Positions 2,018-7,852 of a DNA stretch of 19,042 nt are shown in pieces. The DNA is from a virus. Both the position numbers and the translations under genes were made by a program. A model generated the notes under the pieces. That model saw only the letters and a program-made list of their open reading frames with translations, was not told the origin of the DNA and did no database searches. The stretch lies in the UHGV virus genome UHGV-1351768. The stretch is one strand, 5' to 3'. The stretch's first letter is position 1, and the number at the start of each line of letters is the position of its first letter.

Positions 2018-2500
2018 TTATTTGATAAGAAGTGAAGGTTTCCCAACTTTGAGTTGAGCGCCTGGGATATTTATTCCTGCTTTTAGTTGGTGCTTGATTG
2101 CCAACTTGTCGGCTTTAATTGTCGTTTCGAACTCAACGTATTCAGGAGGAAGGGCGCTTGAGTCGATGATTTCTACAGTTTCTGACGGTTTGCGGATTGT
2201 TACCTGGTGAATACCTGCTCGAATATTTTTCTTGCCAACCATTTCAAGCGATGACGCTATATATGATTTGATGCTGTCAATCTTATTTTGAATTACTGCG
2301 GCTCGCTCATTTAGTGACTTTGCCTCTTCCTTGAGGCGCTCAGCATAACCAGATTCATTTTTGATGACGGAAAGAAGTTGCTCTATTTTATCGGTAAATT
2401 CTCCTTCCATGCCTTCTATTGTGTCAGCAATCATCTCTGGCTCTAAATCTGAATCCATCAATTTTGCGTATTCATTGGCTATTTCATACAGTTTGCTCAC
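2018..2500 (-). CDS. Siphovirus Gp157-family protein (recombination-module accessory protein), about 160 aa
   Basis: ORF 2018..2506; preferred start is GTG at 2500..2498 with SD GGAGG and 6-nt spacer. Sequence pattern LYEI..EY...EAI.GE...LKEEAK.L.ERA...IRKP.ETVEI.D...LPPEY...KLAIK..LKAG..IPGA matches my memory of the Gp157 family, which typically sits next to RecT/Sak genes. Confidence 0.6.
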   Translation of the reverse strand: MSKLYEIANEYAKLMDSDLEPEMIADTIEGMEGEFTDKIEQLLSVIKNESGYAERLKEEAKSLNERAAVIQNKIDSIKSYIASSLEMVGKKNIRAGIHQVTIRKPSETVEIIDSSALPPEYVEFETTIKADKLAIKHQLKAGINIPGAQLKVGKPSLLIK

Positions 2501-3387
2501 TGGCAACCTCCAGTTTCGCTTTGCATTCTATGTAAATGGCTTGTACGTTCTGCTGCAATTTCATTCCAGATGTCAGGCGATATGCTTCTGCAAAATATCG
2601 CTTCAAATCATCCATGTTTTCTGCCTGAGCCATTTCATCACAAAGAAGTTGTGCTTTTTCCATTATTTCCTGCTGGCGTTTCCGTTCATCTTCGCGGATA
2701 TCTTCCTCTGATTTGTGCGGCATAACTGGTTCCTGATGCATACCTTCATCTTCGTTAAGCAGGTGAATGGCATTATCCAGTCGCTGGGCTTTAGGCCAGT
2801 ATTTGCTGGCGCGTTTAACTATTGTTTTACGCGCCATCTCTTCCCAGAATGTTTTCCACGGTCCATTCTTTGCCTTGCTCGTTGCTTCCACAGCTTTAAT
2901 TTCTGCCAGACTCATTTCTTCAGTCAGGTAGTCACCATCTGCTGTTTTAACCGTGCAATAACCTCCAACAATAGAGCCTCGCTCACCAAATGCGTTGTAT
3001 TTGTGGGTTGGTGCTGAATCAAGGCCATTTGATTCATAGGTGTCGTTTGAGTACACCAGTTTGCATTGCCCCCACTTAATTGATCCTGTCGATTGTGCAA
3101 GATGAAGTAATCCCATGTAACTGATATCAAGGCACACCATGCCGTCGCGAGGAACCAGATAAGCCAGTTTGCTGGCCGGGTTTAAGGTGATGCCGATCGC
3201 CGCAACGTTGATGATAGCGTTCTGTGCGCGTGGTCGGATTTGCCAGTGCCGTTTTAGCCAGGTAATCATTTTTCTGGAAATACTGAATTGCAAACTGGCT
3301 TTCCTTAGCCCATGTCACCGTCTGTTCAGTCAATGCTCCGCAGAATAACTGCTCCTGCTGTTTAACGAATTCAACGATATTGCTCAT
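2484..3387 (-). pseudogene. recT: RecT-family single-strand annealing recombinase, interrupted by an apparent +1 frameshift (or sequencing indel) near 3225-3235
   Basis: C-terminal 247 codons in ORF 2484..3293 contain the RecT core (NGPWKTFWEEMARKTIVKRASKYWP, compare E. coli RecT NGPWVTHWEEMAKKTAIRRLFKYLP). The N-terminal 56 codons lie in a different frame (ORF 3127..3387, ATG at 3387 overlapping the upstream stop) and align with the RecT N-terminus (..KTALANPTT). The two frames can be joined by removing one base in ccgaccacgcgcacag (minus strand). Confidence 0.6.
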
Positions 3388-3695
3388 GCAGCTTCTCCAT
3401 AAATATGTCTGCGTTTGAATATTGCGAAGGCATATTCAGCCTTAACTCTTTCGGTTATTGCATCCCAGAACCATTCAGCGGATTTTTCCTGATAGTTACA
3501 GTCATCATCTTCCAGCCAGTCGATAGCGTCCTTAGTGTGTTCATCTGGTTTATATGAGCGAAGCATTTCGCTTATTGGGTCGCAACGTTTGCAGAGGCGA
3601 TCAACTTCACTGTTGATTCGCTCGTAATCTTCATCAGTAAAACTTGCGATTATTTGCGATATTTCACGCTTATCATTCAGAGTCAGAATCATCAT
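3384..3695 (-). CDS. hypothetical acidic early protein, 103 aa
   Basis: Complete ORF; ATG at 3695 with SD AGGAG inside the 3' end of the upstream micro-ORF; stop overlaps the recT ATG (ATGA). About 24 D/E versus 15 K/R by my count. Confidence 0.5.
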   Translation of the reverse strand: MMILTLNDKREISQIIASFTDEDYERINSEVDRLCKRCDPISEMLRSYKPDEHTKDAIDWLEDDDCNYQEKSAEWFWDAITERVKAEYAFAIFKRRHIYGEAA

Positions 3696-3780
3696 CTTTC
3701 TCCTGTTCTTTGTGCTGATTGAGCATTTCTTTCATCTGACGAATGAATTCTTCGTCTGACCAGTTATCTGTAAAACTCAT
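3673..3780 (-). CDS. micro-ORF, 35 aa (MSFTDNWSDEEFIRQMKEMLNQHKEQEKDDDSDSE), in the position where lambdoid phages carry kil-like small genes
   Basis: ATG at 3780..3778 overlaps the stop of the upstream 56-aa ORF (ATGA). Below the ORF-track cut-off; weak SD. Supported mainly by translational coupling. Confidence 0.25.
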   Translation of the reverse strand: MSFTDNWSDEEFIRQMKEMLNQHKEQEKDDDSDSE

Positions 3781-3947
3781 GGACGGCCTTGTTGTTTCAA
3801 AATATCCCAAAGCTTTTCGAGCAAGCTTTTCATTCTTGGTTGTTTAAAGTCTGCTCCGGTTAAAATATTTTTTCGTGAATGCTGTACCGATAAAATCGGG
3901 TTGAAAGGGCGAACCGATGCCGCCCCTGCAATAGCGAACTGTTGCAT
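3777..3947 (-). CDS. small protein, 56 aa, possibly cIII-like (FtsH inhibitor); begins MQQFAIAG and contains LWDILKQQG
   Basis: ATG at 3947..3945 with SD AAGGAG and 6-nt spacer. N-terminus and a central motif resemble lambda CIII (MQYAIAG...LIDILNQPG) as I remember it. Position in the early-left operon is appropriate. Confidence 0.4.
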   Translation of the reverse strand: MQQFAIAGAASVRPFNPILSVQHSRKNILTGADFKQPRMKSLLEKLWDILKQQGRP

Positions 3948-4022
3948 AGGATGCTCCTTCTGTTTGATTGCATAACGAAAACGCCTCGAGTGAAGCGTTA
4001 TTGGTATGCGGTAAAGCCGCGC

Positions 4023-4334
4023 TTAGGCGGCTGATGTTTCTTCTTTCAGGCTTTCGAGATATTTACGTGGGTCGTCGTAACATTGGCATTCGCTATACCA
4101 ATCCACCCAGCGATCAGTAAGCCCCATATCTGATAAATCTTCATCGGTAAGGCTCTCATCCCACATCTCAAGGCCGTTAGCATTGCAGTAATCAGGCTTG
4201 ATGTTGTTGTCATACTGAAAGGCGTCATAATCAGTCAGTGCGTCCATCAGGCGAACACCCTCTTCAACACTTGCCACTTCTACAATGAACGGCTTCATAG
4301 GTACTTGCGGGATATGCCAGACACGTAATTTCAT
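4023..4334 (-). CDS. hypothetical strongly acidic early protein, 103 aa (candidate DNA-mimic or anti-restriction-type protein)
   Basis: ORF 4023..4388 trimmed to ATG at 4334, preceded by SD GGAGG. About 23 D/E versus 9 K/R by my count; ends ...EETSAA. Confidence 0.5.
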   Translation of the reverse strand: MKLRVWHIPQVPMKPFIVEVASVEEGVRLMDALTDYDAFQYDNNIKPDYCNANGLEMWDESLTDEDLSDMGLTDRWVDWYSECQCYDDPRKYLESLKEETSAA

Positions 4335-4501
4335 ATATCCTCCGTCAAAAAAATTGCCCTCACACTGGAGGGCAAAGAAGATTTCCAATAATCAGAACAA
4401 GTCAGCTCCTGTTTAGTTACGAGCGACATTGCTCCGTGTATTCACTCGTTGGAATGAATACACAGTGCCGTGTTTATTCTGTTGTTATTTCCAAAGTGAA
4501 T

Positions 4502-4771
4502 TTAATCAGCAATAAAATCTTCTGGTAATTTATCAACCAGTTGATGGCTTATTATCAGCCATTTGCCATCCTTCGTTCCGTATGCGTATTTCTGGTCTTT
4601 TATCATCAGGTGTTCAGCTACTGCCTTAACTGCCTGTTCGGTGACATCTTCTTTCTTTCCTACCCACATTCCTTTTTCAGTGTTTAATGTTCCTTGAAAA
4701 ATACGACCGCTTAATGGGCTTGCGCCCATGGTTTTAATTTCATATAGCACCTTAAAAATAAAGGCCACCAT
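4502..4771 (-). CDS. hypothetical phage early protein, 89 aa
   Basis: Complete ORF; ATG at 4771..4769 overlaps the stop of the upstream IS1-interrupted gene (TGATG). Confidence 0.45.
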   Translation of the reverse strand: MVAFIFKVLYEIKTMGASPLSGRIFQGTLNTEKGMWVGKKEDVTEQAVKAVAEHLMIKDQKYAYGTKDGKWLIISHQLVDKLPEDFIAD

Positions 4772-5058
4772 CAGGCAGCCTTGTTGTAAATGTTGCAGGT
4801 ATCAAGTAAGTAATTAGATGGAGCGCCATAAATTATGAATTCATCGTTTGTCGGGTCCATCTCCATCTCTTGGCCTATTGCCATTCTTGCGTCAGTGTCG
4901 TCAGCGGCGAAGCATAAAACAGCCCACGCCCCCATTGTTTTAAAAAGAACTGCAATTGGCTGTGGTTTTACTGAATTTGCGTTAGCGCGAAAATCATAAA
5001 TCGGGTAATGCTGCCAACTTACTGATTTAGTGTATGATGGTGATTTTAAGGTGCTTGC

Positions 5059-5334
5059 GTGGCTTCCATTTCCATCAGATGTCCTTCCTGCTCCGCTACT
5101 GAAGGCGTGGTGCGTAACGGCAAAAGCACTGCCGGACATCAGCGCTATCTCTGCTCTCATTGCCGTAAAACATGGCAACTACAGTTCACTTACACCGCCT
5201 CTCAGCACGATAAGCACCAGAAAATCATTGATATGGCCATGAATGGCGTCGGATGTCGCGCCAGTGCACGCATTATGGGCGTTGGCCTCAACACGGTTTT
5301 ACGTCACTTAAAAAACTCAGGCCGCAGTCGGTAA
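5059..5334 (+). CDS. insA: IS1 InsA (transposition inhibitor / N-terminal part of the InsAB' transposase), 91 aa
   Basis: ORF-track protein [43 protein letters not shown]... matches IS1 InsA; correct size and position within the element. Confidence 0.9.
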
Positions 5335-5756
5335 CCTCGCGCATACAGCCGGGCAGTGACGTCATCGTCTGCGCGGAAATGGACGAACAGTGGGGCTACG
5401 TCGGTGCTAAATCACGTCAGCGCTGGCTGTTTTACGCGTATGACAGGATACGGAGGACAGTTGTGGCGCACGTTTTCGGTGAACGCACTCTGGCCACACT
5501 GGAGCGTCTTCTGAGCCTGCTGTCGGCCTTTGAGGTCGTGGTATGGATGACGGATGGCTGGCCGCTGTATGAATCACGCCTGAAGGGAAAGCTGCACGTT
5601 ATCAGCAAGCGTTACACTCAGCGCATTGAGCGACATAATCTGAATCTGAGACAACATCTGGCAAGGCTGGGACGGAAGTCGCTGTCGTTCTCAAAATCGG
5701 TGGAGCTGCATGACAAGGTCATCGGGCATTATCTGAACATAAAACACTATCAGTAA
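5253..5756 (+). CDS. insB: IS1 InsB reading frame, 167 aa (expressed as InsAB' by -1 frameshift at the A6C motif near 5310..5316)
   Basis: ORF-track protein ...[22 protein letters not shown]...[52 protein letters not shown]... matches IS1 InsB; slippery TTAAAAAACTC is present in the insA/insB overlap. Confidence 0.85.
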
Positions 5757-5801
5757 GTTGGAGTCATTACCATAAATCGCACTTTCATGAAATCCCATAT
5801 A

Positions 5802-6134
5802 TCACCCCTCATACAGTGGTTTGCTGCCTAATTTCATTTTCTGGCGACCAACACAAGTCACCCCCATTTCACTGCGTGGCTTGCTGTACCATGTGCGCTG
5901 ATTCTTGCGCTCAATACGCTGCAGGTTGCTTTCAATCTGTTCGTGGTATTCAGCCAGCACTGTAAGGTCTATCGGATTCAGTGCGCTTTCTACTCGTGAT
6001 TTCGGTTTGCGATTCAGCGAGAGAATAGGGCGGTTAACTGGTTTTGCGCTTACCCCAACCAACAGGGGATTTGCTGCTTTCCATTGAGCCTGTTTCTCTG
6101 CGCGACGTTCGCGGCGGCGTGTTTGTGCATCCAT
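5802..6134 (-). CDS. N: antitermination protein N (lambda-type), 110 aa
   Basis: ORF 5802..6185 trimmed to ATG at 6134 (SD AGGAG). Begins MDAQTRRRERRAEKQAQWKAANPLLVGVSAKPVNRPILSLNRKPKSRVESALNPIDLTVLAEYH, i.e. the lambda N arginine-rich motif and body. Confidence 0.85.
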   Translation of the reverse strand: MDAQTRRRERRAEKQAQWKAANPLLVGVSAKPVNRPILSLNRKPKSRVESALNPIDLTVLAEYHEQIESNLQRIERKNQRTWYSKPRSEMGVTCVGRQKMKLGSKPLYEG

Positions 6135-6306
6135 CTGGATTCTCCTGTCAGTTAGCTTTGGTGGTGTGGTAGGTGGGAGACCCATTTCGACCTGCTTCGG
6201 CCGACTTCAATTCGGCAATAGTTCCGCAGGCCTCGCCGCTTTACGTGCGACATATTCCCATCCATGAACCCTTCACCACACCCCAAAGCCTTCTGCTTTG
6301 AATGCT

Positions 6307-6499: not shown

Positions 6500-7852
<1,353 letters not shown>

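What the first reader, a model, noticed from the sequence alone, without database searches (positions are those of the whole stretch)
3384..4334. Two strongly acidic small early proteins: candidate anti-restriction or DNA-mimic factors
The 103-aa proteins at 4023..4334 (about 23 D/E versus 9 K/R) and 3384..3695 (about 24 D/E versus 15 K/R) are highly acidic, small, and sit in the N-dependent early-left operon where lambda carries ral and other host-takeover genes. Small acidic early proteins are the typical signature of DNA mimics such as Ocr/ArdA-type anti-restriction proteins and some anti-CRISPR or anti-defence factors. Neither matches a family I can name.
Basis: inference. Interest (0 to 1): 0.5.

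Follow-up and report, generated by a model that had tools for sequence, protein, structure and literature searches.

The report
P22 gp17 homolog plus Gam-like protein
The two small acidic proteins are real early genes of a lambda-like prophage, but they are different things: one belongs to the known phage P22 "gene 17" family that lets a phage grow on cells carrying a hostile resident prophage, and the other sits where lambda keeps its Gam gene and is predicted to fold like Gam, a DNA-mimicking blocker of the host RecBCD nuclease.

Summary
Observation confirmed. Both ORFs exist as described: 103 aa each, 23 D/E vs 9 K/R and 24 D/E vs 15 K/R. They lie on the minus strand in the N-dependent early-left operon of a lambdoid prophage.

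ORF 4023..4334 is not an orphan. It matches Pfam PF17420 (GP17) at E=1e-55 and is 88% identical to P22 gp17. That protein is recorded as needed for P22 growth on Fels-2 lysogens, so it is a counter-exclusion factor of unknown mechanism. The label "superinfection exclusion protein" is misleading. The family also occurs in strictly virulent phages. Its confident model is a small alpha/beta sandwich unlike any solved DNA mimic.

Neither protein resembles Ocr or ArdA. Interest is moderate.

The parts
4023..4334 (-). Ortholog of phage P22 gene 17 (Pfam GP17, PF17420; phrog_1510). 103 aa, net charge -14.
   Evidence: The Pfam match is E=1.4e-55, 186 bits, full length. It is 88.3% identical to P22 gp17 over 103 aa. 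It occupies the same place as in P22, just upstream of cIII. The AF2 model has pLDDT 91.8.
4354..4375 (-). Intrinsic-terminator-like hairpin with a T7 run, immediately upstream of the gp17 start.
   Evidence: Consensus scan. It implies that gp17 and everything downstream need read-through, that is N antitermination (inference).
3980..3999 (-). Terminator-like hairpin immediately after the gp17 stop codon.
   Evidence: Consensus scan. P22 has an annotated terminator at the same place after gene 17.
3777..3947 (-). cIII homolog (FtsH-inhibiting lysogeny factor).
   Evidence: phrog_550, E=1e-22.
3673..3780 (-). 35-aa very acidic ORF (from the ATG; 45 aa from an upstream TTG), of Arf/HK75-Gp33 type.
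   Evidence: It matches phrog_17766 and phrog_2123. Its first 21 residues are 86% identical to HK75 Gp33. HK75 Gp33 is reported to trigger P2 OLD (bioRxiv 10.64898/2026.07.10.737580).
3384..3695 (-). ORF A: 102/103-aa acidic all-helical protein (phrog_3486) in the gam slot. Predicted Gam-like fold; candidate RecBCD inhibitor.
3384..3398 (-). Translational-coupling junction GGAGAAGCTGCATGA. The Shine-Dalgarno of recT lies inside the last codons of ORF A, with an ATGA stop/start overlap.
   Evidence: Read from the sequence. The same design recurs in 5 other phages. It explains the conserved C-terminal E-(A/V)-A of the family.
2484..3387 (-). recT (RecT-family strand-annealing protein), split here by a 1-nt insertion near 3230.
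   Evidence: Pfam RecT on 2484..3293, and phrog_148 on both pieces. The alignment to mEpX1 recT shows one extra C.
2018..2506 (-). Siphovirus Gp157-family protein. It is the only candidate for the gene scored as a 'MuGam'-type anti-RecBCD protein in phage HK140, which has the same module.
   Evidence: Pfam PF05565, E=1e-37. HK140 classification is from PMC12315714. The identification with MuGam is my inference.
5802..6185 (-). Antiterminator N.
   Evidence: Pfam N36, E=2e-26.
5004..5771 (+). IS1 insertion between N and the rest of the early-left operon.
   Evidence: InsA and IS1 transposase Pfam matches. 23-nt inverted repeats and a 9-bp target duplication CATAAATCG.

Best explanation
The two ORFs are genuine delayed-early genes of the pL operon of a lambdoid prophage. 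They have different roles.

(1) ORF 4023..4334 is the ortholog of P22 gene 17. By homology it is a lytic-cycle counter-defence protein that lets the phage grow in cells whose resident P2-like prophage (Fels-2 in Salmonella) would otherwise exclude it. The most likely mode is stoichiometric binding of a defence protein through the invariant patch Y36 D37 F39 Q40 K46 D48 Y49 N51 W76 W79 on a compact acidic alpha/beta domain. This mode is inferred. The likeliest target class, also inferred, is the AbiU/AIPR abortive-infection protein that Fels-2 carries in the P2 'old' hotspot.

(2) ORF 3384..3695 is the first, translationally coupled gene of the RecT recombination module. It sits in the position gam holds in lambda and gamL holds in phi80. 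It is most likely a highly diverged Gam-fold protein: an acidic helical protein, possibly dimeric like Gam, that occupies the DNA-end binding site of RecBCD by DNA mimicry. That would protect linear phage DNA and hand recombination to the phage's own RecT.

Shown here: gene identity, family membership of gp17, synteny, coupling, charge conservation, and the fold match. Inferred: RecBCD as the target of ORF A, AbiU as the target of gp17, and the binding modes.
For: gp17:
- Pfam PF17420 at E=1.4e-55, full length.
- 88% identity to P22 gp17.
- Same slot upstream of cIII, with a terminator after it, as in P22.
- The P22 RefSeq note reads 'allows growth on phage Fels2 lysogen', and two papers say the same.
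- The family occurs in virulent Kuttervirus, Gamaleyavirus and SPO1-like Bacillus phages. That fits a lytic function.
- The Fels-2 gene in the 'old' slot is AbiU (PADLOC E=2.7e-112; Pfam AIPR).

ORF A:
- The family has 54 representatives at E<1e-3, all about 100 aa.
- In every informative context the next gene starts at or overlaps the ORF A stop, and in all but one case it is the first Rec-module gene.
  - RecT follows in the window, mEpX1, ENT47670, Midgardsormr38, and the contigs of P0160, P0190, P0165 and P0173.
  - A RecE-like DUF3799 nuclease follows in SEN22, phiEt88, the contig of P0185 and L010.
  - An unassigned 281-aa protein plus Gp157 follows in the contigs of P0174.
  - In one case (P0189) a PF27050 gene lies between ORF A and RecT.
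  - cIII usually lies upstream.
- The Shine-Dalgarno of the downstream gene is embedded in the conserved E-(A/V)-A tail.
- GamS is 98 aa with net charge -10; ORF A is 102 aa with net charge -9.
- hhalign of the family against the Gam family gives score 21.1, P=0.0024, collinear (ORF A 52-79 against GamS 57-84, motif DDDxx[YF]QE). None of 300 column shuffles reached it. Unrelated proteins from the same genomic region score 7.8 (RacC) and 8.8 (HK75 Gp33).
- No lambda-type Gam, GamL or Abc2 was seen in any ORF-A locus. The RecT-YqaJ modules there have no other known anti-RecBCD gene.
Against: ORF A:
- The model is only moderately confident (pLDDT 76; 55-65 over residues 40-70) and was built from 6 close sequences.
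- Foldseek against BFVD did not return Gam at all (best E 0.12).
- None of 37 members hits Pfam Gam PF06064, even at E<=10.
- hhalign probability is only 12%.
- ORF A lacks the N-terminal MNAY..DR.E..W helix motif that lambda Gam and phi80 GamL share. In Gam that helix plugs the RecB channel (PMC5218532).
- In this window and in HK140 the module already holds a Gp157/'MuGam'-type gene, so a second anti-RecBCD protein is not obviously needed.

gp17:
- No mechanism is known.
- The link to AbiU rests only on AbiU being the one recognisable defence gene in Fels-2.
Confidence: 0.55

Rival explanations
1. ORF A is a recombination accessory factor, comparable to P22 Arf or Abc1. It would act on or with the phage RecT/RecE proteins, for example by loading, stabilising or regulating them, and would not inhibit a host nuclease.
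For: ORF A is translationally coupled to whichever Rec-module gene comes first, RecT or the RecE-like nuclease. It co-occurs with a Gp157/'MuGam'-type protein in several modules. It lacks the Gam/GamL N-terminal helix motif. Small acidic accessory proteins of unknown mechanism are known in this slot (Arf, Abc1; PMC12315714).
Against: The best structural match is GamS itself. Size, charge and position equal those of Gam. The partner gene changes between RecT and an unrelated nuclease, which argues against a specific protein partner within the module. In RecT-YqaJ modules ORF A completes a gam-bet-exo-like trio.
Confidence: 0.25
2. One reading: one or both proteins are Ocr/ArdA-type DNA mimics that block type I restriction-modification enzymes, or anti-CRISPR-like factors.
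For: Both proteins have strong, conserved negative charge. They are expressed early, in the operon region where lambda and P22 carry ral. DNA mimics share no common fold, so a negative fold search is not decisive.
Against: Neither protein matches Ocr, ArdA or any anti-restriction family by sequence or fold. The recorded gp17 phenotype concerns a prophage exclusion system, not restriction. The most conserved residues of gp17 are aromatic and polar, not the acidic array expected of a pure mimic. ORF A tracks the recombination module, not the ral region. Related prophages carry a separate Ral gene.
Confidence: 0.07
3. gp17 is what its database name says: a superinfection exclusion protein, made by the prophage to keep other phages out.
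For: Pfam, PHROGs and PGAP all label it 'superinfection exclusion'.
Against: The underlying P22 note says it allows growth on a Fels-2 lysogen, which is the opposite role. The gene lies in the repressed, N-dependent pL operon between two terminators. The family is common in obligately virulent phages that form no lysogens. The protein has no membrane or signal features and is a soluble acidic domain.
Confidence: 0.05

Closest known systems
Phage P22 gene 17 protein (Pfam PF17420 'GP17', phrog_1510)
   Same: ORF 4023..4334 has the same length (103 aa) and 88% identity. It has a full-length HMM match. It sits in the same position between the ral region and cIII in the pL operon, with a terminator directly after it.
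   Different: Nothing structural differs. The allele here is the E. coli/Stx-phage variant (98% identical to an Stx1a phage copy). Function has been recorded only for P22 against Fels-2. The mechanism and target are unknown for the whole family.
Lambda Gam (GamS; PDB 2UUZ; Pfam PF06064), DNA-mimic inhibitor of RecBCD
   Same: ORF A occupies the same slot, directly upstream of the strand-annealing gene and after cIII/kil. It has the same size and net charge. It is all-helical with the same helix order, and GamS is its best PDB fold match. The two share a D-D-D-x-x-[YF]-Q-E motif at the start of the last helix. In both, the Shine-Dalgarno of the next gene lies in the last codons.
   Different: There is no significant sequence similarity by HMMER. 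hhalign probability is only 12%. ORF A lacks Gam's N-terminal aromatic helix motif. ORF A overlaps the downstream start codon, whereas gam stops 5 nt before bet. RecBCD binding is untested.
Phage phi80/Lula GamL (gam-like host nuclease inhibitor)
   Same: GamL is a 93-aa acidic helical protein directly upstream of a RecT-type gene followed by exo. It is accepted as a second sequence type with a Gam-like predicted fold (PMC12315714). It sets the precedent that the gam slot holds diverged Gam-fold proteins.
   Different: GamL is still detectably related to lambda Gam over helix 1 (hhalign 85%). ORF A is related to neither at that level (3.7% against GamL). phi80 also needs a partner gene (agt/Mog) to tolerate GamL. 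No such gene is seen next to ORF A.
T7 Ocr / plasmid ArdA (DNA-mimic anti-restriction proteins)
   Same: They are small, very acidic, early-expressed proteins.
   Different: There is no sequence, profile or fold similarity. The genomic logic differs: ORF A tracks Rec modules. The gp17 phenotype concerns prophage exclusion.
HK75 Gp33 / P22 Arf (small acidic proteins upstream of the strand-annealing gene)
   Same: They lie in the same neighbourhood. The window has its own Gp33-like 35-aa ORF at 3673..3780, directly upstream of ORF A. HK75 Gp33 triggers P2 OLD and is proposed to be a RecBCD manipulator.
   Different: They are unrelated to ORF A (hhalign score 8.8). They are much shorter.

Membership tests
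Pfam PF17420 GP17 / P22 gene 17 (for ORF 4023..4334) | Full-length match to the family HMM above the gathering score | tested here: met
   186 bits against a cutoff of 25, E=1.4e-55, residues 1-98 on profile positions 1-98 of 98. phrog_1510 at E=2e-57.
Pfam PF17420 GP17 / P22 gene 17 (for ORF 4023..4334) | Orthology to the P22 prototype: high identity and the same place in the pL operon | tested here: met
   88.3% identity over 103 aa to P22 gene 17. In both phages the gene lies just upstream of cIII with a terminator after it.
Pfam PF17420 GP17 / P22 gene 17 (for ORF 4023..4334) | Phenotype: required for growth on a Fels-2 (P2-like) lysogen | not testable with these tools
   Known only from the P22 annotation and secondary citations. 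The primary papers were not in the library.
Lambda Gam family (Pfam PF06064) (for ORF 3384..3695) | Sequence match to the Gam HMM | tested here: not met
   None of the 37 family members hits PF06064, even at E<=10. phmmer and a profile search against the PDB do not find Gam.
Lambda Gam family (Pfam PF06064) (for ORF 3384..3695) | GamS fold (four-helix arrangement) | tested here: inconclusive
Lambda Gam family (Pfam PF06064) (for ORF 3384..3695) | Remote profile-profile homology | tested here: inconclusive
   hhalign score 21.1, probability 12%, P=0.0024, collinear. None of 300 column shuffles reaches it. Negative controls score 7.8 and 8.8.
Lambda Gam family (Pfam PF06064) (for ORF 3384..3695) | Gene position: immediately upstream of the Rec module (strand-annealing or exonuclease gene), downstream of cIII | tested here: met
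   This holds in the window, 5 cultured phages, IMG/VR locus L010 and the informative contigs found for 7 distant family members. One of them (P0189) has a single gene inserted in between. Lambda and phi80 serve as references.
Lambda Gam family (Pfam PF06064) (for ORF 3384..3695) | N-terminal helix-1 motif (MNAY..DR.E..W) shared by Gam and GamL, which enters the RecB ssDNA channel | tested here: not met
   Gam against GamL aligns at 85% probability over residues 1-38. ORF A starts MILTLNDKREISQII and has no such match.
Lambda Gam family (Pfam PF06064) (for ORF 3384..3695) | Binds and inhibits RecBCD | not testable with these tools
   Needs biochemistry or genetics.
Ocr / ArdA DNA-mimic anti-restriction proteins (both ORFs) | Sequence or fold relationship to Ocr or ArdA | tested here: not met
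Ocr / ArdA DNA-mimic anti-restriction proteins (both ORFs) | Strongly acidic surface conserved across homologs | tested here: met
   Net charge ranges from -10 to -19 in the gp17 family and from -4 to -14 in the ORF A family. Conserved D/E columns are present in both. Surface mapping was not possible.
Ocr / ArdA DNA-mimic anti-restriction proteins (both ORFs) | Relief of type I restriction | not testable with these tools
   Needs plating assays.

The most novel reading that the evidence does not exclude
The three adjacent acidic proteins would form a layered counter-defence block.

ORF A would found a third, so far unrecognised sequence type of Gam-fold RecBCD inhibitors. That would fill the 'no anti-RecBCD gene' gap in SEN22-type and RecT-YqaJ recombination modules.

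gp17 would be a dedicated inhibitor of AbiU/AIPR-type abortive-infection proteins carried in the hotspots of P2-like prophages. That would explain why the family has spread into virulent Kuttervirus, Gamaleyavirus and even Bacillus phages.
Probability: 0.2. Interest if true: 0.65.

Novelty: new variant of a known kind. Interest (0 to 1): 0.4.

Why it matters
ORF A: if it inhibits RecBCD, a family labelled 'hypothetical protein' in about 5% of complete E. coli genomes becomes a third Gam-like type. A thorough 2025 survey of lambdoid recombination modules did not score this family as anti-RecBCD. It rated SEN22 as lacking an anti-RecBCD gene and HK140 as MuGam only (PMC12315714). Recognising the family would change how such modules are classified. 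It would add a new natural trigger for RecBCD-guarding defences such as P2 Old and retron Ec48. It would also add another RecBCD-blocking scaffold of interest for recombineering and quinolone potentiation (PMC5218532).

gp17: the value lies in correcting a misleading name. The family is annotated 'superinfection exclusion protein' everywhere, but the genetic record describes the opposite role. This work also names a concrete, testable candidate target, the AbiU/AIPR gene in Fels-2, for a phenotype described as classical in the literature.

Tried and rejected
Searches that found nothing useful:
- Pfam, NCBIfam and PADLOC found nothing for ORF A. Scanning all 37 family members against Pfam at E<=10 gave only scattered noise.
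- Sequence and profile searches of the PDB found nothing for either family.
- Foldseek of the ORF A model against BFVD did not recover Gam. The best hits were uncharacterised ~105-aa phage proteins, including one from Edno5.
- An Rfam scan of the whole window gave no RNA family.
- Primary literature on P22 gene 17 was not held in the library.
- The search for related loci with the wide alignment failed because no stretch was conserved enough. Two of three single-protein scans found nothing.

Ideas tested and rejected:
- RacC, the small gene upstream of recE in the Rac prophage, might have been the known counterpart of ORF A. It is unrelated.
- HK75 Gp33, the recently reported OLD trigger, might have been ORF A. 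It is unrelated to ORF A, but it matches the neighbouring 35-aa ORF.
- I first recalled the gp17 phenotype as concerning Fels-1. The P22 record and two papers say Fels-2.

Uninformative:
- The window has no Chi sites, but only about 0.6 are expected by chance, so this carries little weight.
Full report
OBSERVATION. Both ORFs are present on the minus strand exactly as described. ORF 4023..4334 is 103 aa with 23 D/E and 9 K/R (pI 4.12). ORF 3384..3695 is 103 aa with 24 D/E and 15 K/R (pI 4.65). Both have good Shine-Dalgarno sequences. Homologs and PGAP start the second ORF at its second ATG, giving 102 aa at 3384..3692. Among 30 candidate genes in the window, the three most acidic per residue lie next to each other. 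They are a 35-aa ORF at 3673..3780, then 4023..4334, then 3384..3695. The acidity is a family property, not a quirk of this copy. Mean net charge is -14.5 over 62 homologs of the first ORF and -8.9 over 37 homologs of the second. The two families have 12 and 8 alignment columns respectively that are at least 80% D/E.

CONTEXT. The window is a lambdoid prophage. On the minus strand, in order of transcription, it carries:
- a LexA/S24-type repressor (6901..7533);
- N (5802..6185; Pfam N36);
- an IS1 insertion (5004..5771);
- a gene truncated by IS1, then a DUF7446 gene (4502..4771);
- ORF 4023..4334;
- cIII (3777..3947);
- the 35-aa ORF;
- ORF 3384..3695;
- recT (2484..3387);
- a Gp157-family gene (2018..2506);
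- Ea22-type genes.

Terminator-like hairpins lie just upstream (4375..4354, followed by seven T's) and just downstream (3999..3980) of ORF 4023..4334. The closest cultured relatives are mEpX1, HK140, Kapi1 and Stx phages.

ORF 4023..4334 IS P22 GENE 17. It matches Pfam PF17420 'GP17' over its full length (E=1.4e-55, 186 bits against a cutoff of 25) and phrog_1510. It is 88% identical to P22 gp17, which is also 103 aa. In P22 the gene sits in the same place, between the ral region and c3, with an annotated terminator after it.

All databases call the family 'superinfection exclusion'. The P22 RefSeq note, however, reads 'allows growth on phage Fels2 lysogen'. Two papers state that gp17 is needed to counteract the Fels-2 exclusion system (PMC6486243 and PMC9409062). 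So it is a counter-exclusion factor.

Consistent with a lytic-cycle role, the family (243 clusters) is common in strictly virulent phages. These include Kuttervirus (Det7, CBA120), Gamaleyavirus and relatives (St11Ph5, U1G), and an SPO1-like Bacillus phage at 41% identity.

I looked for the likely target in Fels-2 itself. The gene in the P2 'old' hotspot (STM2723.1, 565 aa) is a full-length AbiU (PADLOC E=2.7e-112; Pfam AIPR). It is the only recognisable defence gene in that prophage. Proposing it as gp17's target is my inference.

ORF 3384..3695 (ORF A) SITS IN THE GAM SLOT. It has no Pfam, NCBIfam, PADLOC or PDB sequence match. It belongs to phrog_3486, of unknown function. The word-indexed search found only 27 close clusters. 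A full HMMER scan of 1.84 billion representatives found 54 proteins at E<1e-3. Apart from fragments, chimeras and four long multi-stretch hits that I take to be spurious, these are about 100 aa long, down to about 25% identity.

Their genomic context is strikingly constant. In every informative case the next gene starts at or overlaps the ORF A stop codon, and in all but one case it is the first gene of a recombination module.
- It is RecT in the window, mEpX1, ENT47670, Midgardsormr38 and the contigs of P0160, P0190, P0165 and P0173.
- It is a RecE-like DUF3799 nuclease in SEN22, phiEt88, the contig of P0185 and L010.
- One case has an extra gene inserted (P0189). Another has an unassigned 281-aa protein followed by Gp157 (P0174).
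- cIII usually lies just upstream.

The junction reads GGAGAAGCTGCATGA in the window. The Shine-Dalgarno of the next gene is encoded in ORF A's last codons. This explains the family's conserved C-terminal E-(A/V)-A. The arrangement matches gam-bet-exo in lambda and gamL-rec-exo in phi80.

hhalign of the ORF A family against an alignment of 94 GamS sequences gives a weak but collinear match. It pairs ORF A 52-79, HTKDAIDWLEDDDCNYQEKSAEWFWDAI, with GamS 57-84, [28 protein letters not shown]. The score is 21.1, the probability 12% and P=0.0024. None of 300 column-shuffled Gam alignments reached that score (mean 11.0, maximum 19.3). Two unrelated small proteins from the same genomic region score 7.8 (RacC) and 8.8 (HK75 Gp33).

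EVIDENCE AGAINST THE GAM LINK.
- Foldseek against BFVD does not return Gam.
- No family member hits Pfam Gam.
- ORF A lacks the N-terminal motif that links lambda Gam to phi80 GamL (85% hhalign probability over helix 1). In Gam that helix enters the RecB channel (PMC5218532).

MECHANISM. I judge the following the most likely for ORF A, at about 50-55%. It is a diverged Gam-fold DNA mimic that blocks the DNA-end site of RecBCD, and possibly SbcCD. That would protect linear phage DNA and favour RecT-dependent recombination. The main rival, at about 25%, is an Arf/Abc1-like accessory of the phage recombinase. That would fit the coupling to the module and the presence of a Gp157/'MuGam'-type gene in the same module here and in HK140. 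Co-occurrence of two anti-RecBCD types does have a precedent, GamL plus MuGam in HK639 (PMC12315714).

For gp17, the recorded phenotype makes counter-defence the best reading. The mode (stoichiometric binding through the invariant patch) and the target (AbiU/AIPR) are inferences.

COMPARISON WITH WHAT IS KNOWN, AND NOVELTY. gp17 is an ordinary member of a known family. What is worth recording is that the family name is misleading and that its mechanism is still open.

The ORF A family is not in Pfam and has unknown function in PHROGs. A detailed 2025 survey of lambdoid recombination modules did not score it as an anti-RecBCD gene. That survey lists four anti-RecBCD types (Gam, GamL, Abc2, MuGam). 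It rates HK140, which carries ORF A at 99% identity, as MuGam only, and SEN22, which also carries it, as having no anti-RecBCD gene. A July 2026 preprint proposes that this locus is a reservoir of unrecognised RecBCD inhibitors and names HK75 Gp33 as one. The window has a Gp33-like ORF right next to ORF A. If confirmed, ORF A would be a new sequence variant of a known kind of inhibitor.

The ORF A allele occurs in 268 of 5,426 complete E. coli genomes, and the gp17 allele in 135.

STATE OF THIS COPY. In this window recT carries a 1-nt insertion near 3230 that splits it. An IS1 with a 9-bp target duplication sits between N and the genes discussed here. The prophage is probably decaying, and expression of both ORFs from pL may be impaired. 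The ORFs themselves are intact.

VERDICT. Interest is moderate (0.4).

Noticed in passing
window 3673..3780 (-): A 35-aa ORF (45 aa from an upstream TTG) is the most acidic ORF in the window. Its sequence is MSFTDNWSDEEFIRQMKEMLNQHKEQEKDDDSDSE. Its first 21 residues are 86% identical to HK75 Gp33. A 2026 preprint reports that Gp33 is sufficient to trigger P2 OLD and proposes it as a new RecBCD manipulator. The ORF also shares the SDEEFI motif with P22 Arf. It overlaps the start of ORF A by 23 nt.
   Followed up: partly
window 2484..3387 (-), near 3230: recT is split into two ORFs (3127..3387 and 2484..3293). The cause is a single extra C relative to mEpX1 recT. This is either a frameshifted pseudogene or a sequencing error.
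   Followed up: yes
window 5004..5771 (+), flanks 4995..5003 and 5771..5779: A complete IS1 (insA, insB, 23-nt inverted repeats) with a 9-bp target duplication CATAAATCG is inserted between N and the downstream early-left genes. It interrupts a phrog_2471 gene, whose remnant is read as the 135-aa ORF 4771..5178. It is probably polar on pL transcription.
   Followed up: partly
window 3384..3398 (-); L003-L006: The conserved C-terminal E-(A/V)-A of the ORF A family is explained at the DNA level. Those codons spell the Shine-Dalgarno (GGAG/GAGG) of the next gene, with a stop/start overlap (ATGA, TAATG or ATGATG). Lambda gam likewise ends in GAGGTATAA just before bet.
   Followed up: yes
L027 (Fels-2, NC_010463) 22639..24336 (-): The Fels-2 prophage carries a full-length AbiU/AIPR abortive-infection gene (STM2723.1, annotated hypothetical) in the hotspot where P2 carries old. 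It is a candidate for the exclusion system that P22 gp17 overcomes.
   Followed up: partly
window 2018..2506 (-): A Siphovirus Gp157-family gene lies directly after recT. It is the only candidate for what a 2025 survey scores as a 'MuGam'-type anti-RecBCD protein in HK140. If ORF A is Gam-like, the module would hold two putative anti-RecBCD functions and no exonuclease.
   Followed up: partly
window 4502..4771 (-): An 89-aa DUF7446 protein (phrog_1578, unknown function) lies upstream of gp17 and starts at the stop of the preceding gene. It gives only a weak, sub-threshold PADLOC DndE hit (E 0.009).
   Followed up: no
window 6500..6976 (-): A 158-aa ORF lies between the repressor and N, in the position of lambda rexA/rexB or of the genes after cI in other lambdoids. 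It has no Pfam or PADLOC match and overlaps the repressor ORF by 76 nt.
   Followed up: no
whole window: There is no Chi site (GCTGGTGG) on either strand in 19 kb, and no Rfam family at gathering threshold.
   Followed up: yes
P0022, P0025, P0009: Several database homologs of ORF A are chimeras. One has the N-terminal half fused to an unrelated C-terminus. One is a fusion of the Gp33-like N-terminus with the ORF A C-terminal half. One is a fusion with DUF551. This suggests frequent recombination or frameshifts within this gene block.
   Followed up: no
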